In this document: piece after piece, positions 9,431 through 58,328 of the stretch
Position numbering within the stretch: the first letter of the stretch is position 1
How the letters are laid out: each line of letters opens with the position of its first letter
Assembly (NCBI GenBank): GCA_002070505.1
Contig: MWDJ01000003.1
Span: 14,103-78,102, forward strand
DNA: 64,000 bases
Direction: 5' to 3'
Source: Bacteroidetes bacterium ADurb.Bin145
GTDB lineage: Bacteria > Bacteroidota > Bacteroidia > Bacteroidales > VadinHA17
Made by a program: the position numbers and the translations under genes
Notes under the pieces: model-generated
Database searches by the model: none
What the model was told of the DNA's origin: nothing
What the model saw: the letters and a program-made list of their open reading frames with translations, nothing else

Positions 9431-10891
9431 ATGGATAAAATCAATAGACGTAAATTTATTGAAAGAGCATTATTATACAACGGTTCCATTGTTCTGGGAG
9501 GATTCTGGTTCGCTCCCACCCTGGAAAATCTTTTCTTTCAGTCTGCATCAGATTACTATCTTCCAATACAACCAAATAATCCTGCCATAGCCAGGTACGA
9601 GAAAAAATGCAAAGGCTGCCGGGAATGTATTGCTGTTTGTAAAGACGTACAGAAGGTTTACGGTAACTATAAGGCATCAAAAACACATCATGTTTGTATT
9701 CATTGCGGAGCTTGTATTTCCCATTGCACCCATGGCGCCTTGTCGGAAAAATATAACTGGCAGGATGTACTTCAGGCAATAGACGATCCTTCAAAAATTG
9801 TTATAGCATCTATCTCACCATCAGTACCTGCAGGCATTGGCGATTACTTTGGGATTCCTTCAGGTTCATACCTGTCTGAGGATATAACAGGAGCTTGCCG
9901 TAACCTGGGTTTTGACTATGTCCTGGACACCAATTTCAGTGCTGATCTTACGATAATGGAGGAAGCTCATGAGCTTCAGAAGCGTATTGAGGGAAAAGTG
10001 AATATGCCTCAGTTTACAAGCTGCTGTCCTGCCTGGGTAAAATATGTTGAGATCTTTTATCCTTCTCTTATTAATCATTTATCAACGACGAGAAGCCCGA
10101 TCGGTATGCAGGGAGCGATGGTCAAAACATATTTTGCGCAAAAGAAAGGCATTGATCCCAAGAATATTATTCATGTTGCAATAGCTCCATGTACGGCAAA
10201 AAAATACGAAATCACGCGCGAGGAACTTATGACAAACGGTCTGCGCAGTACCGATATAGCAATAACAACAAATGAGCTGGCTATTATGCTGAAATCGCGC
10301 AATGTAGAATTGTCTGCCAGAAAAGAGCCTTTTGATCAGTTCATGGGAACAGCTTCGGGAGCCGGTAAATTATTCGGAAATACCGGAGGGGTAATGAGTG
10401 CTGCAATACGTACTGCACATTTTAACATGACAGGAAAAAATCCGGCTGCTGACCTGGTGGAACTAAAACAGATCCACGGACTGGAAGGCCTGAAAACTGC
10501 TACAGTAAACATAGGAGGGAAAGCACTTAAGGTTGCTGTATGTTATGAGATGAGAAATGCCCAGATCCTTCTTGATCAGGTTGCCAGCGGTTCATGCGAA
10601 TATGATTTCATCGAAGTAATGTCATGTAAGGGCGGCTGTATAGGTGGTGCAGGACAACCCACATCCGACATCAACAACCTTGAAGCCCGGATAAAAGCTT
10701 TAAGTACAGCTGACTCACAGGCTGCTACGCGTTTCTGCCACGAAAATCCTGAGATCATCTCAATATACAAAGATTTCATCGGCAAACCGGGAGGTACAAT
10801 TTCAGAACAATATCTTCACACTCATTTTACCGATAAATCCAGCTTGCTGGAACCGATATTGGCGCAAATGCAGCTTGAACCGGCGGTCTGA
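9431..10891 (+). CDS. [FeFe]-hydrogenase, monomeric, with N-terminal twin-arginine (Tat) signal
   Basis: Tat motif NRRKFIE. Two ferredoxin-type clusters (CKGCRECIAVC, CIHCGACISHC). H-cluster motifs FTSCCPAW, APCTAKKYE and EVMSCKGGCIGGAGQP. C-terminal small-subunit-like tail (ENPEIISIYKDFIGKPGG..EQYLHTHF). Confidence 0.88.
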   Translation: MDKINRRKFIERALLYNGSIVLGGFWFAPTLENLFFQSASDYYLPIQPNNPAIARYEKKCKGCRECIAVCKDVQKVYGNYKASKTHHVCIHCGACISHCTHGALSEKYNWQDVLQAIDDPSKIVIASISPSVPAGIGDYFGIPSGSYLSEDITGACRNLGFDYVLDTNFSADLTIMEEAHELQKRIEGKVNMPQFTSCCPAWVKYVEIFYPSLINHLSTTRSPIGMQGAMVKTYFAQKKGIDPKNIIHVAIAPCTAKKYEITREELMTNGLRSTDIAITTNELAIMLKSRNVELSARKEPFDQFMGTASGAGKLFGNTGGVMSAAIRTAHFNMTGKNPAADLVELKQIHGLEGLKTATVNIGGKALKVAVCYEMRNAQILLDQVASGSCEYDFIEVMSCKGGCIGGAGQPTSDINNLEARIKALSTADSQAATRFCHENPEIISIYKDFIGKPGGTISEQYLHTHFTDKSSLLEPILAQMQLEPAV

Positions 10892-25079: not shown

Positions 25080-25151
25080 GGTCCTATAGTTCAATGGATA
25101 GAACGGAGGTTTCCTAAACCTTAAATCCAGGTTCGATTCCTGGTGGGACTA
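25080..25151 (+). tRNA. tRNA-Arg (anticodon CCU); integration target of the island
   Basis: Hand-folded: acceptor GGTCCTA/TGGGACT (two G-U pairs), D arm GTTC/GAAC, anticodon stem GAGGT/ACCTT with loop TTCCTAA (CCU), T arm CCAGG-TTCGATT-CCTGG, discriminator A. CCA is not encoded. Confidence 0.9.
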
Positions 25152-25153
25152 CA
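25140..25153 (+). repeat. attL core (direct repeat within tRNA-Arg 3' end)
   Basis: CTGGTGGGACTACA, identical to 57823-57836. Confidence 0.75.
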
Positions 25154-25242: not shown

Positions 25243-25542
25243 AAAGATAAAAATATTATATTTTTCTCACCCCGACTGATTAAAACAAAATGCCATTGTA
25301 AATCAATTATATACAATGGCATTTTTCTTTGTAGTAGAAAAAGTTGTAGAATAATAATATATCGCTTTTATCTGATTCTCCCACTTCGTCTCCTGCCAAT
25401 GGCTTATTTTCCTTTCATTATCAAATCTTAAACACATACAATGGATTTCACCCATACTATAAGGGTTTTACCAAGTCTTTCTGAGACTTTCATTTAATTG
25501 AGTTTCAATGTAATTTTATGGGTAAACTTAAAACTTGCACTC

Positions 25543-25857
25543 ATGGAAAATCCCTTCGAAATTCTTGACCAAAGATTATCTTCAATCGAAGAAAAACTCG
25601 ACAACCTAATCCAAAGAATCGAGAACCAGAAAGACACTTCTGTTCTCGACCCAACATGGGTAACCACAAAGCAACTCTCTGAACATCTCGGTATTTCAAC
25701 TGCTGCTGTGACTAATATCAGGGGCACAAAAATACCTTATTATAAAATCGGTGGCAGAATCTTATTCAAACGTGAAGAAGTGGACGAATACATCCAGAAA
25801 TCCCGATATATGAATGGTAGAGATAATTTGGATGAGTATTTAAAACGACATCACTGA
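25543..25857 (+). CDS. helix-turn-helix excisionase-family (HTH_17/MerR-like) DNA-binding protein
   Basis: WVTTKQLSEHLGISTAAVTNIRGTKIPYYKIGGRILFKREEVDEYI is the typical Xis/AlpA-like winged HTH. ATG at 25543 is preferred over the track start at 25498. Confidence 0.7.
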   Translation: MENPFEILDQRLSSIEEKLDNLIQRIENQKDTSVLDPTWVTTKQLSEHLGISTAAVTNIRGTKIPYYKIGGRILFKREEVDEYIQKSRYMNGRDNLDEYLKRHH

Positions 25858-28566: not shown

Positions 28567-30135
28567 ATGAGCGAAGACCTTAAACGCCAACTGGAACAGC
28601 AACTTTGGAATATAGCCAACACCCTGCGGGGGAAAATGGATGCAGATGAATTCCGTGATTACATTCTCGGCTTCATTTTTTACAAATATTTGTCAGAGAA
28701 AATAGAATTGTATGCCAATGGCATCCTGAAGGAAGACAAAATAAAATATCTGGACATCTCAGAAGATTCAGCCAAAGGTCAGCAGTATCTGGAAGCCATC
28801 AGGGAAGAATCGCTTGAAAAACTGGGGTACTTCCTAAAGCCGTCAGAACTGTTCAGTCAGGTTGCAAAACGTGGTAATGGCAATGGCAAGAACATAAGCA
28901 ACTTCATCATTGAAGACATACAGAAAATCCTCATCAACATACAAAACTCCACGATGGGGACAAGCAGCGAAGAAGATTTCGACCACCTGTTCGAGGATAT
29001 GGATTTGAATAGCACCAAACTGGGTAAGACTGCGGAACAAAGAAATGAAGTGATTGCAAAAGTCCTGTCGCATCTTGATAAAATTGACTTCCAGATAGAA
29101 GATTCAAAAATTGATATACTGGGTGATGCTTATGAATATTTGATTGGACAGTTTGCAAGTGGTGCTGGCAAAAAAGCGGGAGAGTTCTACACCCCTCAAC
29201 AGGCATCAAAAATACTTGCACAGATTGTTACACTGGGTAAAACACGTATTAAATCAGCCTACGACCCGACATGCGGGTCAGGTTCTCTTATCCTTCGGTT
29301 GGGCAGAATTTGTGATGTACTGAAATTTTACGGGCAGGAACTTAACCGCACCACTTACAACCTGTGCCGAATGAATATGATATTGCATGGCGTTCATCAT
29401 ACCAGATTCGATATTAAACTGGAAGATACGTTGGAACACCCGCAACACGAAAAACTGGAAGCAGAGGCAGTTGTGGCGAACCCGCCATTTTCGGCAAAAT
29501 GGAGTGCCAGTCCCCTGTTTATGACTGATGACAGATTCAGTGAATACGGAAAACTTGCGCCTTCTTCCAAGGCAGATTTTGCCTTTGTGCAGCATATGAT
29601 TTACCATCTGGCAGAAAATGGCGTTATGGCTGTTGTAATGCCTCATGGTGTGCTTTTCAGGGGTGCAGCCGAGGGACATATCAGGAAATACCTGATTGAA
29701 GAGAAAAACTATCTGGATACCGTTATCGGACTTCCTGCAAATATTTTCTACGGGACATCCATACCAACATGCATTCTGGTATTTAAGAAGTGCCGTGAAC
29801 ATCCTGATGATATTTTGTTTATTGATGCCAGTCAGCATTTCGAAAAGGTTAAAACACAGAATTATCTGCGTGAAGAGGATGTGGACAGGATAATTGACAC
29901 GTATGCAAAACGCATCTCAGTTGATAAATACAGTAATGTTGCCAGTCTGGATGAGGTTAGAGATAACGATTTTAACTTGAACATACCCCGATATGTTAAC
30001 ACTTTTGAAGAGGAAGAATCCATAGATATTGTTGCTGTTTCCAGTGAACTAAAAACACTGGAAATGGAAATGAAAGACACGGATGAAACCATTGCAGGGT
30101 TCTGCAAAGAACTAAACATACCAACACCGTTTTAA
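28567..30135 (+). CDS. hsdM: type I restriction-modification system, DNA methyltransferase subunit M
   Basis: HsdM N-terminal domain (LWNIANTLRGKMDADEFRDYILGFIFYKYLSE), AdoMet motif DPTCGSGS and catalytic NPPFSAKW. Confidence 0.93.
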   Translation: MSEDLKRQLEQQLWNIANTLRGKMDADEFRDYILGFIFYKYLSEKIELYANGILKEDKIKYLDISEDSAKGQQYLEAIREESLEKLGYFLKPSELFSQVAKRGNGNGKNISNFIIEDIQKILINIQNSTMGTSSEEDFDHLFEDMDLNSTKLGKTAEQRNEVIAKVLSHLDKIDFQIEDSKIDILGDAYEYLIGQFASGAGKKAGEFYTPQQASKILAQIVTLGKTRIKSAYDPTCGSGSLILRLGRICDVLKFYGQELNRTTYNLCRMNMILHGVHHTRFDIKLEDTLEHPQHEKLEAEAVVANPPFSAKWSASPLFMTDDRFSEYGKLAPSSKADFAFVQHMIYHLAENGVMAVVMPHGVLFRGAAEGHIRKYLIEEKNYLDTVIGLPANIFYGTSIPTCILVFKKCREHPDDILFIDASQHFEKVKTQNYLREEDVDRIIDTYAKRISVDKYSNVASLDEVRDNDFNLNIPRYVNTFEEEESIDIVAVSSELKTLEMEMKDTDETIAGFCKELNIPTPF

Positions 30136-30137
30136 TC

Positions 30138-31385
30138 ATGGAAATGCAAAAGAACATGCCGCAATTGCGTTTCCCTGATTTTGAAGGTGAGTGGGAGAAG
30201 AAAAAATTGGGTGAACTATCAATAATAAATCCTACCACTGTTAAACTACCAAACAAATTCATCTATATTGATTTGGAGAGTGTTACTAATGGGCAATTAA
30301 TTAAAGAAGAGGTTGTATTTAAAAACGAAGCACCAAGCCGAGCACAAAGAGTTTTGGAAATAGAAGATATTTTGTTTCAAATGGTACGACCTTACCAAAA
30401 AAACAACCTGTATTTTGACAAAAATGGAGATTATGTTGCTTCAACTGGATATGCTCAAATAAAAACCAAACAAAGTTCCCGATTTTTATATCAGTACCTT
30501 CATTTGCAACAATTTGTTGATGAGGTTATCGAAAGATGTACAGGCACAAGTTATCCTGCTATTAATTCGAAAGATTTAGCAAAAATTAGTGTTAGTTACC
30601 CCACTCTTCCCGAACAACAAAAAATCGCATCTTTTTTCACTGCCATTGACAAAAAGATAACGCAACTCAAGCAAAAGAAAACACTGCTGGAACACTACAA
30701 AAAAGGGGCGATGCAGAAAATATTTTCGCAGCAAGTCAGGTTCAAAGACGATAAAGGGTTCGAGTTTCCGAAGTGGGAGAAAAGTAAGTTCAATCAAATT
30801 TATTCCTTTAGAGTAACAAACTCTTTTTCAAGAGATGACCTGAACTATGAAGAAGGAGATGTAAAGAATCTTCACTATGGAGATATCCACACTAAGTTTA
30901 ATACACTTTTTGACATCACGAAAGAGGAAGTTCCATTTATCAAGCCTGACGTTTCGATAAAAAGAATAAGTTCTGACAATTACTGTAAGACCAGCGACAT
31001 TGTATTTGCTGATGCATCAGAAGACCTTGCTGATGTGGGTAAAAGCATTGAACTGGTTAATCTCAATGATGAGAAAGTTCTCGCTGGTTTGCATACAATT
31101 TTAGCAAGACCCGATGTAACAAAAATTGCTTCTGGATTTGGTGGTTATTTGATGAAGTCGCCTGAAGTTCGTCAACAAATTATGAAAATTGCACAAGGGT
31201 CAAAAATTACGAGCATATCAAGTACAAGGCTTTGCGATATTGAATTGAACACACCATGCCCTGATGAACAAACCAAAATCGCTAATTTCCTATCATCCAT
31301 TGATGTTAAAATAAACCAAACCCGAATGCAGATAGAAAAAGCAGAGGTTTGGAAGAAAGGGTTGATGCAACAAATGTTTGTATAA
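30138..31385 (+). CDS. hsdS: type I R-M specificity subunit S
   Basis: Two target-recognition domains are separated by the conserved central helix LPEQQKIASFFTAIDKKITQLKQKK and a C-terminal repeat (DEQTKIANFLSSIDVKINQ). The gene starts 3 bp after hsdM. Confidence 0.9.
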   Translation: MEMQKNMPQLRFPDFEGEWEKKKLGELSIINPTTVKLPNKFIYIDLESVTNGQLIKEEVVFKNEAPSRAQRVLEIEDILFQMVRPYQKNNLYFDKNGDYVASTGYAQIKTKQSSRFLYQYLHLQQFVDEVIERCTGTSYPAINSKDLAKISVSYPTLPEQQKIASFFTAIDKKITQLKQKKTLLEHYKKGAMQKIFSQQVRFKDDKGFEFPKWEKSKFNQIYSFRVTNSFSRDDLNYEEGDVKNLHYGDIHTKFNTLFDITKEEVPFIKPDVSIKRISSDNYCKTSDIVFADASEDLADVGKSIELVNLNDEKVLAGLHTILARPDVTKIASGFGGYLMKSPEVRQQIMKIAQGSKITSISSTRLCDIELNTPCPDEQTKIANFLSSIDVKINQTRMQIEKAEVWKKGLMQQMFV

Positions 31386-32523
31386 AATAATACTGAACGA
31401 TATGTATCGCATAAACAAAACAAACAATAATGTTACCAAACTTGAACAACGGTTGTTTAAAGAACTGCGAATCAAGGAAAGGGAGCATCTTCAGGAATGG
31501 ATTGCAAAGAATCCTGATATGTTGGGAGAAGAATTATTAATAATTCAAAAAGAATTCAGTGGTTTCAATGACACCAGTGAGCGACTTGACCTTTTAGCCA
31601 TAGACAGGGATGGTGGATTGGTCATAATTGAAAACAAACTTGATGATACAGGTAAAAATGTGGTTTGGCAAGCACTCAAGTATACCTCTTATTGTTCGAC
31701 ACTTACCACAGCACAGATTATCAAAATGTATCAGGAGTATATCGACAAATACGGAAATGGGGAAGATGCAAAAGAAAGTCTGCTTGAATTTCTGGAGTGG
31801 GAAGAAGAAGAACTCTTATTGAATCGAAACGACCAAAGGATTGTTTTTGTTTCAAATAATTTTCGCAAAGAGGTAACCTCTACTGTAATTTGGTTACTAA
31901 AGCACGACATTCAAATCCAATGTTTTAGGGCAATACCTTACAGTATGGGAGACGAGTTGTTTTTACAGATGGAGCAAATTATTCCATTGCCCGAAACAAA
32001 AGAATTTATGATTGATGCACAAGAAAAGGAAAAGGATGAAAAACATAAAAGCAAATCCGTTGAGGAATCCGAAGCACTGCTTATTAAATTTTGGGGACAA
32101 CTGAAACATCATTTAGTAGAGCAGAATATTGATTTTCTTGAAAGAGTTAGTGCGCATCCGAAACATAATATTGGTTTTTGGAAAGGGCATGGCAAGTTCG
32201 CCTTCTGTCTCGGCAGAAGTAATTTCAGAGTTGAACTTTATTTTTCTAATGACCCTGACAAAAAATTTATAGATGCAATGGCAATCCATAAGGATGAAAT
32301 AGAAAATTCATTTGTCGGGAAAATTGTATGGGAAAGATTGGAAAATAAAAGAGCATCACGTATCAAGCACGAAATGACACCCAGCGAATTAGAAAAGTTA
32401 AAGGGACGTTTTAATGATGAGACCTATTGGGAAGAACTAATTGCATGGTACAAATTAGCAATGGTGAAATTCTATGCAACCCTATATCCTGTTTGGGAAA
32501 AAGTTCAGAAGGAAATTTCATAA
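31378..32523 (+). CDS. PD-(D/E)xK-like nuclease domain protein with DUF4268-like C-terminus, embedded in the type I R-M operon
   Basis: ERLDLLAIDRDGGLVIIENKLD gives a D...(D/E)xK arrangement. The C-terminal half (FWGQLKHHL...HNIGFWKG...RVELYF) resembles DUF4268. Overlaps the hsdS end by 8 nt and stops 2 bp before hsdR. Confidence 0.55.
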   Translation: MYKIILNDMYRINKTNNNVTKLEQRLFKELRIKEREHLQEWIAKNPDMLGEELLIIQKEFSGFNDTSERLDLLAIDRDGGLVIIENKLDDTGKNVVWQALKYTSYCSTLTTAQIIKMYQEYIDKYGNGEDAKESLLEFLEWEEEELLLNRNDQRIVFVSNNFRKEVTSTVIWLLKHDIQIQCFRAIPYSMGDELFLQMEQIIPLPETKEFMIDAQEKEKDEKHKSKSVEESEALLIKFWGQLKHHLVEQNIDFLERVSAHPKHNIGFWKGHGKFAFCLGRSNFRVELYFSNDPDKKFIDAMAIHKDEIENSFVGKIVWERLENKRASRIKHEMTPSELEKLKGRFNDETYWEELIAWYKLAMVKFYATLYPVWEKVQKEIS

Positions 32524-32525
32524 CG

Positions 32526-35378
32526 ATGGCAAAACAACCCGAATTGATACTTGAAGAACAACTTATTGCAAAACTGCAAGAAGTGGGTTATGCATTGGTG
32601 CAAATAAATAATGAAAATGAACTTATAACCAACCTTAAAATACAGTTGGAGAAACATAATAACATCCATTTCTCCGATAAGGAATTTGAAAAAGTATTAA
32701 ACATTCTTAGTAAGGGTTCGGTATTCGAGAAAGCAAAAACACTTCGTGAAAAACAGCATATCATCAGGGATAACGGTGACAACCTCTATTTTGAATTCAT
32801 CAACACCGACCAATGGTGTCAGAATGAATATCAGGTTACCCATCAGGTTTCGATGGAAGGAAAGTATAAGAACCGCTATGATGTAACACTGCTTATCAAT
32901 GGTCTTCCGTTGGTTCATATTGAACTAAAGCGCAGAGGTCTGGAACTGAAAGAAGCATTCAATCAGGTAAACAGGTATCAGCGTCATTCCTTCAGCAGCA
33001 GTTATGGATTGTTCCAGTACATCCAGATATTTGTCATTAGTAATGGTGTTAATACGAAATATTATGCCAACAACCGCTTCCAGTCGTTCAAGCAGACATT
33101 TTACTGGACTGATAAGGAAAACAAACGGCTTACCAACATATTGAACGGCTTTGCTACTGATTTTTTGGAGAAGTGCCATATCTCAAAGATGATTTGCAAG
33201 TATGTGGTGCTAAATGAAACTTCCAAGATATTGATGGTGCTCCGACCCTACCAATACTATGCAGTTGAAGCACTTATTGACAGGGTAGAGCACAGTACTA
33301 AGAACGGCTATATCTGGCACACAACAGGTAGTGGGAAGACACTCACATCATTTAAAGCAGGACAAATACTTACACGTGTTCCGAAAATTAAGAAAGTAGT
33401 ATTTGTTGTTGACCGTAAAGATTTGGATTATCAGACAACAAAAGAATTCAATAGTTTTAGTAAGGGGTCTGTTGATGGAACAGACAATACAAGACAACTG
33501 GTAAGACAATTCACAGATGATACAAAACTAATTGTAACAACCATCCAGAAACTCAATGCAGCCATCAGCAAAAAGCATTTTCTGGAAGGGATGAAGGCAC
33601 TTCAGGATGAACGAATTGTTTTCATCTTTGATGAGTGCCACCGAAGCCAGTTTGGTGAAACACATCAACGTATAATATCATTTTTCAGGAACATCCAGAT
33701 GTTCGGCTTCACTGGTACTCCGATATTTGCTGAAAATGCTGTAAAGAATGAATTGGGTAAGAAAACCACAAAGGAATTATTTGGTGAATGTTTGCACAAA
33801 TATGTTATTACCGATGCCATCCGTGATGAGAATGTGCTGAAGTTCTCAGTTGAATACGTTGGCAGGTACAGGAACAAAGAAAGTGCCACAGAGATTGATA
33901 TTCAGGTTGAGGATATTAATGTTGATGAACTGATGGATTCATCGGTACGACTGGAAAAGATTGTTGATTATATCATTGCCTACCATAACAAGAAAACGCA
34001 TAACAGGGAGTTTACAGCCATGTTCTGCGTGAGTAGTATTCCAGCATTGATTCGCTATTATGAATTGCTCCAGCGCAAGAAAATGCTCGGAGAACACGAT
34101 TTAAAAATCGCCACGATATTTAGTTACATTGCCAATGAAGATGATGTCGATGCAAACGGTTTCATACCTGAAGAAGTTTCGGTTGCAGCAGAGCCAGAAA
34201 TTGCTTATGCAACCAATCCACATACACGTGAAAAACTTGATGAATTTATCGGTCATTATAACCAGATGTTTGGTTCTGCATATTCCACAAAAGACAGCCA
34301 GAGTTTCTATAACTACTACAACGACATCAGTAAGAAGGTTAAAGAGCGTAAGATTGACATATTATTGGTGGTGAATATGTATCTAACTGGATTTGACAGT
34401 CCGTCACTTAATACTTTATACGTTGATAAGAACCTCAGATATCACGGACTGATACAGGCTTATTCCAGAACCAACCGCATCCTGAATGAACTGAAAAGTC
34501 AAGGCAACATTGTGGTTTTTCGTAACCTGAAAAATGCCACAGATGAAGCAATTACCCTGTTCAGCAACAAAGATGCCATTGAAGAAATCATTATGAAGCC
34601 GTATGATGAATACGTGAATGCATTTAATGATGGATTTGTCAACCTGCTCCATATAACACCCACTGTCGATAGCATAAATAATCTTGTTACGGAAGATGAT
34701 GAACTGAAATTTATCATTGCTTTCAGGGACTTAATGCGTATTAAAAATGTGCTGGCATCATTCTCCGACTTCAAATGGAGTGACTTGTCAATGACTGAGC
34801 AGCAGTTCGAAGATTACAAGAGCAAGTATCTTGACCTGCACGATAAAGTAAAGAGCGACCATGCAAGAGAGAAGGTAAGCATACTTGAAGATGTTGATTT
34901 TGAACTTGAATTAATTCACCGTGACGAAATAAATGTTGCATACATCATTCGTCTGCTAATAAAACTTAAAGCCAATCAGAAGAAAGATGCGGAGCAGATT
35001 GAAAGGGAAATCTTCAACCTGCTGAATACGGAAATGCAATTAAGAAGCAAGAAAGAACTGATAGCAAGATTTATCAGGGAAAATATGCCTGTCATTCTGG
35101 ATACCGATGATATACCACAGGAATTTGAAAAGTTCTGGACTGTGGAGCAGGAGAAAGCGTTCCTGAAACTTGTTGAGGAAGAAAGACTGTCGAAAGAAAA
35201 GACACAAACGTTGATTGAAAATTATCTGTATTCCGAACAAGAGCCAATGAGAGATGAAATACTGGAATTACTGGCTGGTGAAAAACCAACACTGCTTCAA
35301 CGTAAAACAACTGGTGAAAGGATACTGAGAAGGATTATGGATTTTGTTGAAACGTTTATTAATGGAATATCTGGTTAA
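32526..35378 (+). CDS. hsdR: type I restriction endonuclease subunit R
   Basis: N-terminal nuclease domain (RYDVTLLINGLPLVHIELKRRG), helicase motifs TGSGKT and FDECHRSQ, FTGTP, and a C-terminal helical domain. ATG at 32526 (MAKQPELILEEQLI) is preferred over the track start at 32427. Confidence 0.93.
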   Translation: MAKQPELILEEQLIAKLQEVGYALVQINNENELITNLKIQLEKHNNIHFSDKEFEKVLNILSKGSVFEKAKTLREKQHIIRDNGDNLYFEFINTDQWCQNEYQVTHQVSMEGKYKNRYDVTLLINGLPLVHIELKRRGLELKEAFNQVNRYQRHSFSSSYGLFQYIQIFVISNGVNTKYYANNRFQSFKQTFYWTDKENKRLTNILNGFATDFLEKCHISKMICKYVVLNETSKILMVLRPYQYYAVEALIDRVEHSTKNGYIWHTTGSGKTLTSFKAGQILTRVPKIKKVVFVVDRKDLDYQTTKEFNSFSKGSVDGTDNTRQLVRQFTDDTKLIVTTIQKLNAAISKKHFLEGMKALQDERIVFIFDECHRSQFGETHQRIISFFRNIQMFGFTGTPIFAENAVKNELGKKTTKELFGECLHKYVITDAIRDENVLKFSVEYVGRYRNKESATEIDIQVEDINVDELMDSSVRLEKIVDYIIAYHNKKTHNREFTAMFCVSSIPALIRYYELLQRKKMLGEHDLKIATIFSYIANEDDVDANGFIPEEVSVAAEPEIAYATNPHTREKLDEFIGHYNQMFGSAYSTKDSQSFYNYYNDISKKVKERKIDILLVVNMYLTGFDSPSLNTLYVDKNLRYHGLIQAYSRTNRILNELKSQGNIVVFRNLKNATDEAITLFSNKDAIEEIIMKPYDEYVNAFNDGFVNLLHITPTVDSINNLVTEDDELKFIIAFRDLMRIKNVLASFSDFKWSDLSMTEQQFEDYKSKYLDLHDKVKSDHAREKVSILEDVDFELELIHRDEINVAYIIRLLIKLKANQKKDAEQIEREIFNLLNTEMQLRSKKELIARFIRENMPVILDTDDIPQEFEKFWTVEQEKAFLKLVEEERLSKEKTQTLIENYLYSEQEPMRDEILELLAGEKPTLLQRKTTGERILRRIMDFVETFINGISG

Positions 35379-38975: not shown

Positions 38976-39551
38976 ATGAGAAAGGTAGCACTATATTGTC
39001 GTGTAAGTTTAAGCAATGGTAGCCAGACTACCGAAAATCAAAAAATCAGATTGATTGAATATGCTGAAAAATATGGATATCAATACGATATCTTCGAGGA
39101 AACCGAAAGTACTCGGAAGACCAGACCTGTTAAACAAGGGTTGCTGGCACGACTAAGAAACAAAGAATATGATGCTGTAATTATTTATAAATTAGACCGT
39201 TGGGCAAGGTCTTCAACTGAACTAATTCTTGACACAAAAGAACTTCTGGACAAGGGTGTTGGCTTTATTAGCATCAGCGATAATATTGATTTTACTACAG
39301 CAGCAGGAAAATTGCATTTCCAAATTTTGTCAGCATTTGCTGAATTTGAACGGGAATTAATAAGGGAACGCACGCTTGAAGGTCTACGCAGGGCAAAATT
39401 GCAGGGTAAACAGGCTGGAAGACCTAAAGGAAGTAAGGACACCAAAAAAAGAAGAAAATCTGGATATATTCTTAGAGAGGCAAGAAAGAAACAGAATCTG
39501 GACGCATTGAATGGAATAAATCATTCCATTGAAAGTTATATTGGAACTTAA
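38976..39551 (+). CDS. small serine recombinase (resolvase/invertase catalytic domain) with atypical basic C-terminal tail
   Basis: VALYCRVSLSNGSQTTENQ (catalytic Ser context), VIIYKLDRWARS, AEFERELIRERT..GL..AK..G...GRPKG. After GRPKG there is a Lys/Arg-rich tail instead of an obvious Hin-type HTH. Confidence 0.85.
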   Translation: MRKVALYCRVSLSNGSQTTENQKIRLIEYAEKYGYQYDIFEETESTRKTRPVKQGLLARLRNKEYDAVIIYKLDRWARSSTELILDTKELLDKGVGFISISDNIDFTTAAGKLHFQILSAFAEFERELIRERTLEGLRRAKLQGKQAGRPKGSKDTKKRRKSGYILREARKKQNLDALNGINHSIESYIGT

Positions 39552-44460: not shown

Positions 44461-45027
44461 AAAAACAATGAACATATGAAACGCCTGTAAACTTCCCTAT
44501 TAATTCTGCTTTTTATAGGTGGCTTCTTTGAATATTCATATTAAAATTACCATAAACGTTCAGTTGCAGTTAATGCTGTTGACCATATGGTGAACCATGA
44601 CCAAGCCTAAGTACCCTGTCGTGGAATTCAATTAGTTCCAATAGTTCTGATTTGATAACCCTTACATTAACTACATTTCATCAATCTCTTGAGCATAAAA
44701 GTTTAACCTATTGCACTTGGTACGTCAGTCAAAAGAAAATCATATTCCTGACTTTCTTTCAAAAAAAACCGTATTATTTGCGAAGACTAAGTGTACACTA
44801 TAAAGTCGATATAAGATTAGACTTATCCTATATTTTCACCAACTAATTCTTAAAATTACTATCTTTGTACTTGAAACATCAAGAATCCTTTAATGGATAC
44901 CAACCGAGTATAACACCACGGTGGTAAAGCGATGTGGACGGTCTGTCAAAAATGTTAGTAATTACGACTTTCCAGATTGAACTTGATGTGAAAAGTAATT
45001 TTTTGTCTAACAGTAACTTTTTACATT

Positions 45028-48050: not shown

Positions 48051-48233
48051 ATGTTAATCTGTTTGAGATTATGATAATAAAGTTAAGAAAAAATAAATCA
48101 TTGAAAATAGTTCAAATATGGCGTAATTTAGTTGTGTGGCTCGCAGTTTCTTGGTGCTTTTTCTATTTAATACGGTTTCACATCGGAAACTGCTGACCAA
48201 CAGCGATATTTGACATTTTACAAGGCGACACAT

Positions 48234-48266
48234 CTTCCTTTTAGCACGAGGAAATGCAGCGAGACA
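48234..48266 (+). repeat. partial copy (inner hairpin plus conserved tail) of the structured element
   Basis: cttccttttagcacgaggaaatgcagcgagaca matches the interior of copy A (48341-48373) apart from two single-base indels. Confidence 0.6.
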
Positions 48267-48299
48267 TTTTTTATTCCACACTTGTGTTGCTTTAAAAAC

Positions 48300-48390
48300 A
48301 ATGGTTGAACGACCTATTTGAGGCAGTACTCACCTTATTACTTCCTTTAGCACGAGGAAAATGCAGCGAGACAACGAGTACTGCCTCTTT
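48300..48390 (+). ncRNA. unclassified structured element, copy A (strand assignment tentative)
   Basis: Conserved 5' block AATGGYTGAACGACCTATTT. Outer stem GAGGCAGTACTC (48320-48331) / GAGTACTGCCTC (48376-48387). Inner stem TTCCT/AGGAA around AGCACG. Conserved AATGCAGYGAGACAA. T-rich 3' tail. Confidence 0.5.
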
Positions 48391-48443
48391 CTTTTAATAA
48401 AAAACATTTATTTTATTACATTTGATATTAGATATTAAACAAG

Positions 48444-49097
48444 ATGAAAAAAGCAATATATATTCTGATAATCTTGGTTTTATTATCTATAATAATTATC
48501 CCATTTTTCTTTAACTCTGCCCAGAACAATAAAATTGTTGTAGCGGCGAATTTGGTTAGTGCATTAGCATCTTTAATCACTTTAGTGATTGCATTTCTTT
48601 TATTTGATAAATATGGCTTGAAAAAGGATTTTGTTAGAACCCAAACAGAAATAGTATTACAACAATTGGAGAGTATAAGAACTGCAGGTTTTATAATACG
48701 TTCAAAAAACAGTTTTTTACAATTCTTCCCTTCCAAAAACAGGATTGAAAGTTATGAAATGTTTTACTCTGAAAAGTTAATATTTAGCCAAAAATACTGG
48801 GAATATGTTAATCACATTTTCAAATTGTCGTCATCCATATATATGCCCAAAGAAATCGTTGAAAAAATAAATTTATTAAAACCTTCAATGATTGAGCATT
48901 TAAAATTAGAGGAAGTATCCAATTATTCAAAGGTTACATTTTGGGGCGATAAAATTGAAGACAACGACTTTGGAAAAATGAATGGAGAAGAAATTACTTT
49001 CCAGATATTTTACACATATTGGATTGATGTTATAGACGTTATAATTAGTTGGTTAAGCAGCAAAATAGATATTGATAAGTTAAATATTAAATTTTAA
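48444..49097 (+). CDS. hypothetical protein with two N-terminal TM helices
   Basis: IYILIILVLLSIIIIPFFF and VSALASLITLVIAFLLF. The remainder is unrecognised. Confidence 0.4.
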   Translation: MKKAIYILIILVLLSIIIIPFFFNSAQNNKIVVAANLVSALASLITLVIAFLLFDKYGLKKDFVRTQTEIVLQQLESIRTAGFIIRSKNSFLQFFPSKNRIESYEMFYSEKLIFSQKYWEYVNHIFKLSSSIYMPKEIVEKINLLKPSMIEHLKLEEVSNYSKVTFWGDKIEDNDFGKMNGEEITFQIFYTYWIDVIDVIISWLSSKIDIDKLNIKF

Positions 49098-53373: not shown

Positions 53374-53553
53374 GGTGTTTAAGTTTTACATATAACCAAT
53401 TAGTTCATAAACGGACAAATTATTTTCCGTACTCCAGAAAAATATTATCAAAAATATTTTTAAATATGATTTTTACTCATCTAAAGTTATACCTAATTGC
53501 TGGTAGAACCAAATTATTTTGTTTTTCACCTAATATTGTACTACTCTTAAAGG

Positions 53554-53640
53554 AATGGCTGAACGACCTATTTGAGGCAGTCCTTCATACCCACAGCAAG
53601 AGGGTTAATGCAGTGAGACAATTCGATAGGACTGCCTCTT
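53554..53640 (+). ncRNA. unclassified structured element, copy B (strand assignment tentative)
   Basis: Same 5' block (AATGGCTGAACGACCTATTT). Outer stem GAGGCAGTCCT (53574-53584) / AGGACTGCCTC (53628-53638). Inner stem ACCC/GGGT around AGCAAGA. Conserved AATGCAGTGAGACAA. Confidence 0.5.
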
Positions 53641-53889
53641 ACTTTATATCACAATCTTCATCACTCTTTCTACATGGGAGTTGTTAACTCGCCAAAATGG
53701 CGAGTCAAATTTTCATGAACTTACCTCTTCCCAAAAATGGGGAGTCTGATAATCTGTAGTTTGACTACACCATTATTAATCTCACCCCAAAGTATTTGAT
53801 TCGACTATTTGGATAAGTTGGTCAGGGTTTCAACGACAGCCAGTTACCAGAAATAGCCGTCATCCTCATATTCCCAAATTAGTATAAGA

Positions 53890-56041: not shown

Positions 56042-57676
56042 TCACTTATTAAAGTCTTTAATTAGTTTTTGAATCACTTGTTTCTTTTGTTCAAGATTGA
56101 GTCTATTTTTATAATACTTTAGAATCTTTACATCAGTATGTCCAGTGAATTGAATTATTAATTCGTCTGCTAATCCTAAGTTCGCTAAATAATTTATAAA
56201 TGTTTTTCTGGCTGTAAAAGGAGCAAATACCTCATGTAATTTATATTCTATAACATTCTTCTTGGAATTAATTCTTGTGTTCGGTTCTGAAATTATCCGA
56301 TTCCATTTAAAATGTTTTGCAACTTCTTTCAATTGTTCCCGATATGTTGATATATTAAGAAATTCAGGCAACCCTTCAGGATATCTTTTTAAAACATCTT
56401 TAACTTCTATCAAGATTGGATTTTTCGAAATCTTTTTTGATTTACTACGGTAAAAACCTACGTAGGTATTTTCAAACCTTAAATTACCACTATATAACTC
56501 ACTTGGACGTAATCCACCAGCAAACATCTGGATAATATACATGTCAGTTGCAAGTTGCATTTTGGGGTCTTTGAATGAAGCAGTAAGAAGTTGTTCGATT
56601 TCTTCATATTCCAAGGTAAATTCAATTTTTGTGTAACTATCTCTGTTTAAAGACCTGCTAAGAAAATCTGAAGCATTTATATGATTGGTATTTACTGCTG
56701 TTTGAGGTATCAGTCCTACTGTTTGAAGAATATTAATATAATGTTTCAGCATCTTCACAATTTTCTGGAATGAAGCAATCTTAAAGTATTCTCTGGAAGC
56801 ATTTGTAAATGATTTCTTCTTTTCGAAAATATTAAATGGGGAATACCCTTTGAAATGAATCAGTGGATATCCTTTCTTAACTTTAAATTTCAAAAATTCC
56901 TCAACCCATTTTAAATTGAATTTATTAACTGAATTGCTTACTAAATCTCCATTCAAAATATAATCGGCAAGGTGAAAAATCAGGGATTGGTATGAATCTG
57001 CAATAAATGGGTCATTATTCTTAGGATTTTTTGACCAACAATAACCGAATACTTCAATAAGGTTGTTTTTATCAAATTTACCCTGAGCATACCTTTCATC
57101 CAGAGTCAATGACTGAGTAAGTTTTTTATCCTTTTCAATCTGAATTTCAATACTAATAGAGTCTTTTATATTATCTATTTCTTCATCTGTAATTTCTCCT
57201 TGTTCACTTATCTTTTCTTCAATTGCTTTTTCAATGCGTTTAATTTCGTCACTCTGAAAAGAATTTTCTTCTTCTGAAAAACTTATTGTATTCAAAAACT
57301 TGTTCCACGATGTAACTTCTGAATCTAATGCCTCTTCCTTTTGAATATCATACAACTTATTATTAATATCATCTACCGTAAAATCTACTCCTTCAGAAAT
57401 TTTGTCTACCAGTATCTTCTTGATTTTTGTTTCAATATTAAATAACTTCAATCTCTCGGTAGTGGGGGGTTCTGATTTCAATTTTTCATATTGCGAATCT
57501 GTTACCAAATAAATATTATTGAACTCATCTCTAATTGTTACTTCGAACCGTTTCAATTCATTGAATTTTTTGCCTGACATATACCCAATCTTTGCTAAAA
57601 CCTTCAATTGGCTACTCCCATCCTGTCTTTTATAACTAACACGAAATAAATTAGTCTTTATGATAGTGTTTTTCAT
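56042..57676 (-). CDS. int: tyrosine-type site-specific integrase with long N-terminal arm-binding/linker region
   Basis: C-terminal catalytic domain: GGLRPSELY (Arg I), FTARKTFINYLANLG (Arg II region), TGHTDVKILKYY (His...Tyr nucleophile). It is the last gene before attR. Confidence 0.88.
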   Translation of the reverse strand: MKNTIIKTNLFRVSYKRQDGSSQLKVLAKIGYMSGKKFNELKRFEVTIRDEFNNIYLVTDSQYEKLKSEPPTTERLKLFNIETKIKKILVDKISEGVDFTVDDINNKLYDIQKEEALDSEVTSWNKFLNTISFSEEENSFQSDEIKRIEKAIEEKISEQGEITDEEIDNIKDSISIEIQIEKDKKLTQSLTLDERYAQGKFDKNNLIEVFGYCWSKNPKNNDPFIADSYQSLIFHLADYILNGDLVSNSVNKFNLKWVEEFLKFKVKKGYPLIHFKGYSPFNIFEKKKSFTNASREYFKIASFQKIVKMLKHYINILQTVGLIPQTAVNTNHINASDFLSRSLNRDSYTKIEFTLEYEEIEQLLTASFKDPKMQLATDMYIIQMFAGGLRPSELYSGNLRFENTYVGFYRSKSKKISKNPILIEVKDVLKRYPEGLPEFLNISTYREQLKEVAKHFKWNRIISEPNTRINSKKNVIEYKLHEVFAPFTARKTFINYLANLGLADELIIQFTGHTDVKILKYYKNRLNLEQKKQVIQKLIKDFNK

Positions 57677-57822: not shown

Positions 57823-57836
57823 CTGGTGGGACTACA
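57823..57836 (+). repeat. attR core (direct repeat of tRNA-Arg 3' end)
   Basis: CTGGTGGGACTACA. The preceding TTAAATCCAG..GGGTT is a degenerate copy of the tRNA variable/T-arm region (57802-57822). Confidence 0.75.
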
Positions 57837-57883
57837 AAAAAGAGTGAGAGTGTGAGCGAGAGCGAGTACTCTCACTCTTTTTT
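57836..57883. terminator. strong hairpin abutting attR (probable original tRNA-Arg terminator)
   Basis: AAAAAAGAGTGAGAG (57836-57850) / CTCTCACTCTTTTTT (57869-57883) is a perfect 15-bp inverted repeat with an 18-nt loop, flanked by an A-run and a T-run. Confidence 0.6.
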
Positions 57884-58328
57884 CTCGCTCCCACTCTCAC
57901 ACTCACACTTTTCTCTCCGTTCGCGGTTAGCCTTGTTCAGCAGATTTGACCGGGATAAATTCATCCTCTTCGAATATTCACCGAGGGTGATTATCTCCTT
58001 GCCTTCAAGATAAGCCAATCGTTTATTATAGCTGTTTGTGAGAGCCTTGTAGAGTATTTCCTTAAAAAAGAGGGCTATTCACGGTATTGCATATATAAAC
58101 TGTGAAGTAATGCTTTTTTTAGACTTCTATTCACGTTTTTTAATAAATAAACTTGAATAAAGCAGGTGACTAGATATGGAAAAGTTTTTTCATGACCGCC
58201 CGGCCCATCCGGATGTTATCAATATTTCCGCTTTGTTTATAAGTCCATTAATATGTAACACTGATACTTATTGAAAATTAATCTAAATTTGTTATAAGAG
58301 TTTGAGAAATATCATTTAACAGGTCAGG

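What the first reader, a model, noticed from the sequence alone, without database searches (positions are those of the whole stretch)
48300..48390. Unannotated structured element of about 90 nt with compensatory base changes between copies
Copies at 48300-48390 and 53554-53640 share a near-identical 5' block (AATGGYTGAACGACCTATTTGAGGCAGT) and a conserved internal block (AGCAMGA...AATGCAGYGAGACAA). They differ exactly where pairing must be preserved. The outer stem is GAGGCAGT-ACTC/GAGT-ACTGCCTC in copy A and GAGGCAGT-CCT/AGG-ACTGCCTC in copy B. The inner stem is TTCCT/AGGAA in A and ACCC/GGGT in B. Covariation in two helices argues for selection on a folded RNA or ssDNA rather than a decaying duplication. 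A third, partial copy (48234-48266) keeps only the inner hairpin and tail. I cannot assign the element to a known RNA family. Both full copies lie in non-coding DNA upstream of minus-strand operons (the TPR gene; the GYF/DUF805 gene), and copy A also lies about 55 bp upstream of a plus-strand gene.
Basis: seen in the sequence. Interest (0 to 1): 0.7.

Follow-up and report, generated by a model that had tools for sequence, protein, structure and literature searches.

The report
Modular hairpin small RNA on island
The two 90-nt copies are real and fold as claimed, but each is only the last hairpin of a larger, undescribed multi-hairpin small-RNA gene carried on a defence island in uncultured Bacteroidales; what the RNA does is still unknown.

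Summary
Copies A (48300-48390) and B (53554-53640) share a 28-nt block with one mismatch. Both fold into an outer and an inner helix that differ by compensating changes.

The element is larger than reported. The "partial third copy" is a complete module with its own outer stem. The full unit spans about 48101-48395 on the plus strand: a promoter-like site, a 5' domain, module M1, a linker with a small hairpin, module M2, and a U-run.

Related units occur in seven other metagenomic contexts, with one to three modules. A hand-registered alignment of 11 modules gives 95% paired cells, and 9 of 22 pairs changed on both sides. No Rfam family matches.

G.U pairs, the U-runs and the promoter all point to a plus-strand RNA. 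It is not a leader of the minus-strand genes.

Both copies lie inside a 32.7-kb island integrated in tRNA-Arg(CCT). Copy B is a 5'-degenerate version, and a related island carries one at the same position.

My best reading is an island-borne, independently transcribed, trans-acting small RNA. The function is inferred, not shown. It is a new candidate RNA family of a familiar kind.

The parts
48101..48131 (+). Promoter-like site: TTGAAA, 17-nt spacer, TAATTT(AG)
   Evidence: The same arrangement occurs in L018, L022 and L044 (TTGATA-18-TAAATT). Conservation between otherwise unrelated flanks begins here. Inferred; no transcript data.
48132..48215 (+). 5' domain: hairpin GCAGTTTC/GAAACTGC (48143-48150 / 48186-48193) plus a stretch complementary to the module cores (the 'anti-core')
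   Evidence: The hairpin is kept in L018 and L022 with one A-U to G-C compensatory change. Duplex energy with the module cores is -27 to -32 kcal/mol, against -16 +/- 3 for shuffles.
48222..48293 (+).
48294..48319 (+). Linker with small hairpin GGTT/GACC (48303-48306 / 48311-48314). Together with the first 8 nt of the M2 stem it contains the 22-nt stretch TGAACGACCTATTTGAGGCAGT (48306-48327), invariant in A, B, L018 and L022.
   Evidence: L042 has GGTCA/TGACC at the same place.
48320..48387 (+). Module M2 (hairpin of copy A): outer stem 48320-48331 / 48376-48387, inner hairpin 48342-48347 / 48354-48359, loop motif AATGCAGCGAGACAAC 48360-48375
48388..48395 (+). U-run (TTTCTTTT) after the M2 stem; terminator-like 3' end
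   Evidence: Every terminal module in every locus is followed by a T-run, and no internal module is.
53450..53553 (+). Degenerate upstream part of copy B. It is homologous to the pre-M0/M0 region of L042 and L018 but has lost the 5' strand of the outer stem.
53554..53648 (+). Copy B: linker (53554-53573), module with outer stem 53574-53584 / 53628-53638 and inner stem 53589-53592 / 53602-53605, T-rich tail 53639-53648
25080..25153 (+). Context: tRNA-Arg(CCT), left end of the island. Its last 14 bp (25140-25153) are repeated at 57823-57836.
57823..57836 (+). Context: right-end direct repeat CTGGTGGGACTACA of the island
56042..57676 (-). Context: 544-aa tyrosine integrase of the island
48444..49097 (+). 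Context: 217-aa two-TM protein 55 nt downstream of the RNA, with its own -7 box TACATTTG at 48417-48424. It co-occurs with the RNA in L044 and L045/L046.

Best explanation
The element is part of a gene for a modular small non-coding RNA, read from the plus strand at about 48135-48395 (roughly 255 nt). The gene is carried inside a 32.7-kb island integrated in tRNA-Arg(CCT). The RNA is built from repeated hairpin modules. Each module has a 10-13-bp outer stem whose sequence is free to vary. Each has a short inner hairpin (UUCCUU/GAGGAA or ACCC/GGGU). Each has an internal loop on the 3' side that always displays AUGCAGYGAGAYA. The last module is followed by a U-run and acts as an intrinsic terminator. 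An invariant single-stranded linker precedes it, and a 5' domain is complementary to the module cores. Copy B is a 5'-degenerate version (linker plus last module plus terminator). It sits near one end of the integrase-proximal 4.4-kb block of the island. A related island in L042 carries a similar version at the same position.

Most likely mechanism (inferred): the RNA acts in trans. It would present its invariant unpaired segments, the 22-nt linker and the repeated loop motif, to an mRNA or a protein partner. The outer stems would serve only as scaffolds and terminator. The 5' anti-core could mask one module.

Shown: sequence conservation, helices with compensation, modularity, strand indicators, absence from Rfam, and island context. 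Inferred: transcription, trans action and the partner.
For: The repeat is non-random. Folds: A has z = -3.8 and L036 has z = -4.7. Homologous units lie in different contexts: L018/L023, L022, L024, L036, L042, L044, and a diverged form in L045/L046. The flanks are unrelated, and conservation starts at the promoter-like box and ends at the U-run. In the 11-module alignment, 95.4% of cells are paired against 85.3% when shuffled (0/500). Nine of 22 pairs are changed on both sides. The covariation score is 0.284 against 0.147 (0/500). Slid controls give 44-58% paired. There are 10 G.U cells against 3 A.C cells, which favours the plus strand (my tally: the G.U cells are the GU/UG counts, the A.C cells I identified from the A12 rows). 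Every terminal module has a U-run and no internal module has one. The promoter-like TTGAYA-17/18-TAAWTT is conserved. In L022 a fluoride riboswitch starts right after the terminator, so the RNA is a separate unit. L036 is a stand-alone single module with a perfect TAAATTTG -7 box and a T8 tail. A 5' single-stranded stretch followed by a terminator hairpin is the architecture of Bacteroides FopS sRNAs, which are also spread by mobile elements (PMC11697453).
Against: No transcript data exist, so strand, ends and expression are all inferred. There are only about 8 distinct loci, and several rows are close relatives or paralogs, so the covariation statistics are not independent events. The module alignment was hand-registered to the structure. 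Among true orthologs of M2 only 2 columns are compensatory. No target was found in the window for the linker or the loop motif beyond shuffled controls. L042 has two uncompensated mismatches in its outer stem.
Confidence: 0.55

Rival explanations
1. The element is a cis-acting RNA. It would be a leader/attenuator for the downstream 217-aa membrane-protein gene, or an insulating terminator at cassette boundaries within the island. Its loops would be conserved because a regulator binds them.
For: The RNA lies 55 nt upstream of the 217-aa gene in the window and in L044 (84% identical protein). A diverged RNA precedes the 64%-identical homolog in L045/L046. Copy B and the L042 copy sit at one end of their islands and point inward, where a terminator would block read-through. 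At the equivalent place next to the tRNA, the island has a plain terminator hairpin.
Against: The 217-aa gene has its own perfect -7 box, TACATTTG, between the terminator and the ATG. In L018 the RNA is followed by a convergent gene. In L022 it is followed by a fluoride riboswitch with its own gene, and in L036 by convergent genes. Homologs of the 217-aa protein in L047-L049 lack the RNA. A plain terminator would not need invariant loops and a linker.
Confidence: 0.15
2. The element is the RNA component of a toxin-antitoxin or defence module, similar to a type III system. Repeated RNA units would neutralise the product of a neighbouring gene such as the 217-aa two-TM protein.
For: The layout is repeated RNA modules, then a terminator, then a small membrane-protein gene. 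The neighbourhoods are rich in defence genes: Gabija in L018 (GajA 3.7e-172, GajB 7e-118) and type II RM in L042, HEPN_AbiU2 and an MmeI-like methyltransferase in L045, and type I RM in the window island.
Against: The modules are 65-85 nt, diverged and structured. They are not exact 34-40-nt tandem repeats. The downstream protein has no Pfam, PADLOC, NCBIfam or PHROG hit and no PDB sequence hit. Its AF2 model (pLDDT 69) has no fold match, so no ToxN-like RNase is evident. Most RNA loci lack this gene.
Confidence: 0.12
3. The element works as DNA. Candidates are a recombination or attachment site, an attC-like folded single strand, an inverton, or a REP/MITE-like palindrome that promotes cassette exchange in islands.
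For: The structure is mosaic. L022 and L044 combine L018-type 5' modules with an A-type M2, so exchange occurred at the linker. Breakpoints lie exactly at the unit's ends. The 5' domain is an imperfect inverted copy of the module cores. The element lies in integrase-bearing islands.
Against: The island's real attachment site is the 3' end of tRNA-Arg, with a 14-bp exact direct repeat and TTAACAAC arm repeats. That site is unrelated to the element. There are only three modules in 64 kb. There are no attC R/L boxes and no IntI. The inverted repeat is only about 70% matched, which is poor for an inverton. The G.U over A.C bias, the one-sided U-runs and the promoter-like box are RNA features. The element is absent from more distant integrase loci L037-L041 and L043.
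Confidence: 0.13
4. The copies are a decaying duplication without function, and the hairpins are leftovers of terminators.
For: Copy B and the L042 copy have lost the 5' strand of their first module. L042 and the M0 module of L022 carry uncompensated mismatches.
Against: The unit is about 95% identical in L018, L022 and L044 while the flanks are unrelated. Five different outer-stem sequences all stay complementary. The loop motif is retained even in the diverged L045.
Confidence: 0.05

Closest known systems
FopS/GibS family of Bacteroides small RNAs (PMC11697453)
   Same: Bacteroidota host. [quoted passage not shown] Copies are paralogous and associated with mobile elements or phages. Each has its own promoter.
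   Different: There is no sequence or Rfam-model match. This RNA is much longer, with up to three extra hairpin modules and a 5' anti-core domain. The conserved motif sits in internal loops as well as in the linker. No PUL/SusC targets are known.
Multi-hairpin protein-sponge RNAs (CsrB/RsmZ type; comparison from my own knowledge)
   Same: A variable number of repeated hairpin units each display the same short unpaired motif, and the RNA ends in a terminator.
   Different: The motif here is AUGCAGYGAGAYA in an internal loop, not GGA in apical loops. CsrA is not a Bacteroidota system, and no partner protein has been identified.
Type III antitoxin RNAs (ToxI; comparison from my own knowledge)
   Same: Repeated RNA units, then a terminator, then a downstream protein gene, located in mobile defence islands.
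   Different: The units are long, structured and diverged. No ToxN/AbiQ/CptN-like toxin is present, and the association with the downstream gene is inconsistent.
Intrinsic (Rho-independent) terminators
   Same: The outer stem of each terminal module plus its U-run fits the definition.
   Different: The loop is about 45 nt and holds a conserved inner hairpin and motif. The same design recurs internally without a U-run.

Membership tests
Any Rfam 15 family | Covariance-model score at or above the family's gathering threshold | tested here: not met
   Gathering scans of the window and of seven loci gave only two tRNAs, a SAM-I/IV riboswitch and a fluoride riboswitch. Relaxed scans of A, B and the L044 unit gave only chance hits with E >= 0.06, far below gathering scores.
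FopS/GibS sRNAs | The R1/R1' seed sequence, and a match to the model that PMC11697453 says was deposited in Rfam | tested here: not met
   No Rfam hit. I did not confirm that the FopS model is in the release searched. The architecture is described.
Intrinsic terminator | A GC-containing stem immediately followed by a U-run on the transcribed strand | tested here: met
   Stems of 11-13 bp are followed by TTTCTTTT, TTTTTGTT, TTTTTTTT and similar in all terminal modules. The simple scanner misses them because the loop exceeds 8 nt.
Type III toxin-antitoxin (ToxIN-like) | Near-identical tandem RNA repeats of about 34-40 nt | tested here: not met
   The modules are 65-85 nt and diverged, with different stems.
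Type III toxin-antitoxin (ToxIN-like) | A downstream endoribonuclease toxin of the ToxN/AbiQ/CptN type | tested here: not met
   The 217-aa protein has no Pfam, PADLOC, NCBIfam, PHROG or PDB sequence hit. There is no fold match, though the model is only of moderate confidence.
Attachment site of the resident integrase island | A direct repeat at both island ends, adjacent to integrase arm sites | tested here: not met
   The att repeat is the 3' end of tRNA-Arg, CTGGTGGGACTACA, at 25140-25153 and 57823-57836, with TTAACAAC triplets beside both. Copies A and B are internal to the island.
Bacteroidales inverton | Near-perfect inverted repeats flanking a promoter, with both orientations observed | tested here: inconclusive
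   The 5' domain and the module cores are only imperfectly complementary, about 70%. All 23 contigs of this species show a single orientation. Read-level data were not available.
Retron ncRNA | An adjacent reverse transcriptase gene | tested here: not met
   No RT domain appears among the neighbours in the window, and none appears among the few L018 and L042 neighbours that were scanned. L022's neighbours were not checked for RT domains; its 801-aa neighbour has no PADLOC or NCBIfam hit and only unknown-function PHROG hits.
Integron attC | R''/L''-L'/R' boxes (RYYYAAC ... GTTRRRY) and an IntI integrase | tested here: not met
   Only a single GTTGAAC lies 5' of the stem, with no inverted partner. 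The integrase is a 544-aa non-IntI tyrosine recombinase.

The most novel reading that the evidence does not exclude
The RNA would be a new class of island-encoded modular riboregulator. A variable number of scaffold hairpins would each present the same 13-nt loop motif, and a built-in anti-core 5' domain would switch the modules on or off. It would travel with defence islands of Bacteroidales. There it would control, or serve as the antitoxin or sensor for, island or defence functions such as the conserved 217-aa membrane protein.
Probability: 0.2. Interest if true: 0.7.

Novelty: new member of a known kind. Interest (0 to 1): 0.5.

Why it matters
Few structured or regulatory RNAs are known from Bacteroidota outside gut Bacteroides. 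Almost none are known from the uncultured Bacteroidales that dominate anaerobic digesters. This is a candidate new RNA family with an unusual modular build. It sits in mobile defence islands and shows cassette-like exchange of its last module. If it is transcribed, it offers a handle on how such islands are regulated, or on a new RNA-protein partnership. If it proves to be only an elaborate terminator, the interest is modest.

Tried and rejected
1. Rfam at gathering and relaxed thresholds on the window and loci: nothing.
2. A 17-mer scan of viral contigs hit only an unrelated phage coding sequence.
3. The 18-mer genome scan gave 9 hits, of which only L018 is real. The rest, including Prevotellaceae L016, are chance matches. 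The 20-mer metagenome scan likewise gave two chance matches, L021 and L025.
4. Plasmid and phage BLAST: no match.
5. Hypothesis that A and B are attL/attR of an island: rejected. The att site is the 3' end of tRNA-Arg.
6. Hypothesis that the element always accompanies this integrase family: rejected for integrases of 60-65% identity and for L041. It holds only for the window and L042. The integrase and the 217-aa family are both absent from IMG/VR.
7. A TGTAGTCC match inside L042's module was judged coincidental because it is in inverted orientation.
8. Search for base-pairing targets of the linker and loop motif at 146 translation starts in the window: no better than shuffled seeds.
9. Coding explanation: A lies in no plus-strand ORF. 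A/B length differences are not multiples of three, and ATGCAG-TGA in B is an immediate stop (my reading).
10. Structure prediction and fold search of the 217-aa neighbour: uninformative.
11. MAFFT would not register the paralogous stems. I therefore used an N-padded, hand-registered alignment and built no covariance model.

Full report
**Observation**

The shared 22-mer TGAACGACCTATTTGAGGCAGT occurs exactly twice in 64 kb, and never in 100 shuffles. The internal block AATGCAGYGAGACA occurs three times.

For A the energy is -27.7 kcal/mol with z = -3.8. For B, on the plus strand, z = -1.6. RNAalifold on five linker+M2 sequences recovers a small linker hairpin, an 11-bp outer helix and the inner helix, with two columns changed on both sides.

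**The element is larger than reported**

A genome-collection scan with an 18-mer returned one true relative, in a Rikenellaceae MAG (L018). A metagenome scan added three more:
- L022, a full unit.
- L023, which equals L018.
- L024, which equals copy B at 98.4% identity.

Aligning L018 with the window showed that homology runs from about 48120 to 48395.

It has its own 10-bp outer stem, AAGGCGACAC/GTGTTGCTTT. L018, L022 and L044 carry one further module, M0 (AAAGGCGACAC/GTGTCGCCTTT).

A viral-contig scan found a stand-alone single module in L036, AGCGACACCCCTT/AAGGGGTGTCGCT. It is preceded by a perfect Bacteroidetes-type -7 box, TAAATTTG, and followed by T8. Its fold has z = -4.7.

More relatives came from neighbouring proteins:
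- L042 lies next to an integrase 87% identical to the window's.
- L044 lies upstream of an 84%-identical homolog of the 217-aa gene.
- L045/L046 hold a diverged form upstream of a 64%-identical homolog.

**Anatomy of the window unit (plus strand)**

| Part | Coordinates |
|---|---|
| Promoter-like site TTGAAA-17-TAATTT(AG) | 48101-48131 |
| 5' domain; hairpin GCAGTTTC/GAAACTGC | 48132-48215; hairpin at 48143-48150 / 48186-48193 |
| Module M1 | 48222-48293 |
| Linker; hairpin GGTT/GACC | 48294-48319; hairpin at 48303-48306 / 48311-48314 |
| Module M2 | 48320-48387 |
| U-run | 48388-48395 |

In L018, L022 and L044 the flanks are unrelated on both sides. Conservation of about 95% switches on at the promoter-like box and off after the U-run. 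The generic scanner also reports TTGATA-18-TAAATT at that box in L044. The 5' hairpin keeps its pairing through one A-U to G-C change.

**Evidence for structure**

MAFFT could not register the paralogous stems. I therefore made an N-padded, hand-registered alignment of 11 modules, which MAFFT left gapless. I then counted pairs on it:

| Measure | Observed | Shuffled control |
|---|---|---|
| Cells paired | 95.4% | 85.3% (0/500 reach the observed value) |
| Pairs changed on both sides | 9 of 22 | 4.5 on average (1/500 reach it) |
| Covariation score | 0.284 | 0.147 (0/500 reach it) |

Sliding the 3' partner by 1 to 3 columns drops pairing to 44-58%.

Three caveats apply. The alignment was fitted to the structure. 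The rows are paralogs or close orthologs, so they are not independent events. Among true M2 orthologs only two columns are compensatory. The strongest qualitative point is that five unrelated outer-stem sequences all remain perfectly or nearly perfectly complementary, around a loop motif that is conserved throughout.

**Strand and molecule**

Four indicators point to a plus-strand RNA:
- G.U cells outnumber A.C cells 10 to 3 in the plus sense (my tally: G.U cells from the counts, A.C cells identified from the aligned rows).
- Every terminal module is followed by a T-run on the plus strand, and no internal module is.
- The conserved promoter-like box lies upstream on the plus strand.
- In L022 a fluoride riboswitch, identified by Rfam, starts directly after the U-run, so the element is a separate unit.

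In L018 nothing follows in the antisense direction. This argues against a leader role for the minus-strand operons. A coding role is excluded as well. A lies in no plus-strand ORF, the A/B indels are not multiples of three, and B reads ATG-CAG-TGA.

**Genomic context**

The sequence TGTAGTCCCACCAGAAC lies at the integrase-proximal end. Conservation among integrase loci begins exactly there. It is the reverse complement of the 3' end of the window's own tRNA-Arg(CCT) at 25080-25152.

CTGGTGGGACTACA occurs exactly twice, at 25140-25153 and 57823-57836. Triplets of TTAACAAC sit beside both copies. So 25153-57836 is a 32.7-kb island, or an island array, integrated in tRNA-Arg. It carries:
- an HTH_17 gene;
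- a type I restriction-modification system;
- a resolvase;
- a SAM riboswitch;
- the TPR gene;
- RNA unit A;
- membrane and GYF/DUF805 genes;
- copy B;
- the integrase.

A and B are internal to the island and are not its attachment sites.

The block from 53450 rightward also occurs next to a recO fragment in L024. Copy B lies about 100 nt inside that block. L042's copy lies at the equivalent, integrase-distal position and on the opposite strand to the integrase. Both have lost the 5' strand of their first module.

More distant integrase loci lack the element. Elsewhere the RNA sits beside Gabija in L018, a large protein of unknown function in L022, and HEPN_AbiU2 with an MmeI-like methyltransferase in L045. 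L022 and L044 combine L018-type 5' modules with an A-type M2, which implies exchange at the invariant linker.

**What it most likely does**

I favour an independently transcribed, island-borne small RNA that acts in trans through its invariant unpaired parts, at a confidence of about 0.55. Those parts are the 22-nt linker and the repeated AUGCAGYGAGAYA loops. The outer stems would be scaffolds, and the last one would be the terminator. The layout of a single-stranded stretch followed by a terminator matches Bacteroides FopS sRNAs. The repeated display of one motif resembles sponge RNAs.

The 5' domain is significantly complementary to the module cores. In the window the duplex is -27 to -32 kcal/mol against -16 +/- 3 for shuffles, and the same holds in L018 and L044. 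This suggests self-masking, but its meaning is unexplained.

I found no target in the window.

**Rivals**
- A cis-acting leader or insulating terminator (0.15).
- A type III-like RNA antitoxin or defence component paired with the 217-aa protein (0.12).
- A DNA-level recombination element (0.13).
- Functionless decay (0.05).

The 217-aa protein gave no family, sequence or fold match. It also has its own -7 box. Both points weaken the first two rivals.

**Comparison with known families and novelty**

No Rfam 15 family matches at any threshold that I tried. The element is not a FopS member, not a ToxI-type array, not an attC site and not the island's att site. It does meet the definition of an intrinsic terminator at its 3' module.

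I rate it a new member of a known kind: a candidate new small-RNA family. Interest is 0.5. The structure and modularity are well supported and unusual. The family is so far small, and its function is unknown.

Noticed in passing
window 25080-57836: A 32.7-kb island, or island array, is integrated in tRNA-Arg(CCT). It has an exact 14-bp direct repeat (25140-25153 / 57823-57836) with TTAACAAC x3 arm repeats beside both ends. The integrase is at 56042-57676, a type I RM system at 28567-35378, a resolvase at 38976-39551 and an HTH_17 gene at 25498-25857.
   Followed up: partly
window 44871-44963 (+): A SAM-I/IV riboswitch (Rfam, 59.4 bits) lies upstream of small ORFs and an FGase gene. It appears to sit inside the island.
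   Followed up: no
window 57836-57905: A long perfect palindrome flanked by A6 and T6 (AAAAAAGAGTGAGAGT...ACTCTCACTCTTTTTT) sits immediately outside the island's right repeat. It is probably the displaced terminator of the tRNA. Its loop has a weak resemblance to the module motif (GAGCGAGAGCGAGTACTC).
   Followed up: partly
L022 4054-4115 (-): A fluoride riboswitch (51 bits) lies directly downstream of the RNA terminator. It precedes a cation/proton antiporter and an enolase operon.
   Followed up: no
L038 ~9700-9900 and L040 ~9720-9930: Upstream of related integrases, the 12-mer GCAGTCCGTAGG (GCAGTCCGTCGG in the first copy in L040) is repeated about 190 nt apart. The repeats enclose a GC-rich stretch of about 150 nt with a tRNA-like T-arm and a terminator. 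Neither ARAGORN nor Rfam recognises it. It may be a different target RNA gene for that integrase subgroup.
   Followed up: partly
window 48444-49097 (+); L044, L045, L046: A family of 202-232-aa proteins with two N-terminal TM helices (10 cluster representatives at 58-100% identity) recurs beside the RNA and in defence neighbourhoods. It matches no known family or fold.
   Followed up: partly
window 48131-48163 vs 48243-48267 and 48349-48378: The 5' domain of the RNA is an imperfect inverted copy of the module core. The single-sequence MFE fold of the window unit uses this long-range pairing instead of M2. The complementarity is conserved in L018 and L044. Its significance is unexplained: it could be a switch, or a relic of an inverted module.
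   Followed up: partly
L024 108-575: In this contig the block containing copy B abuts a truncated recO-like reading frame. The block therefore has a different left neighbour than in the window.
   Followed up: no
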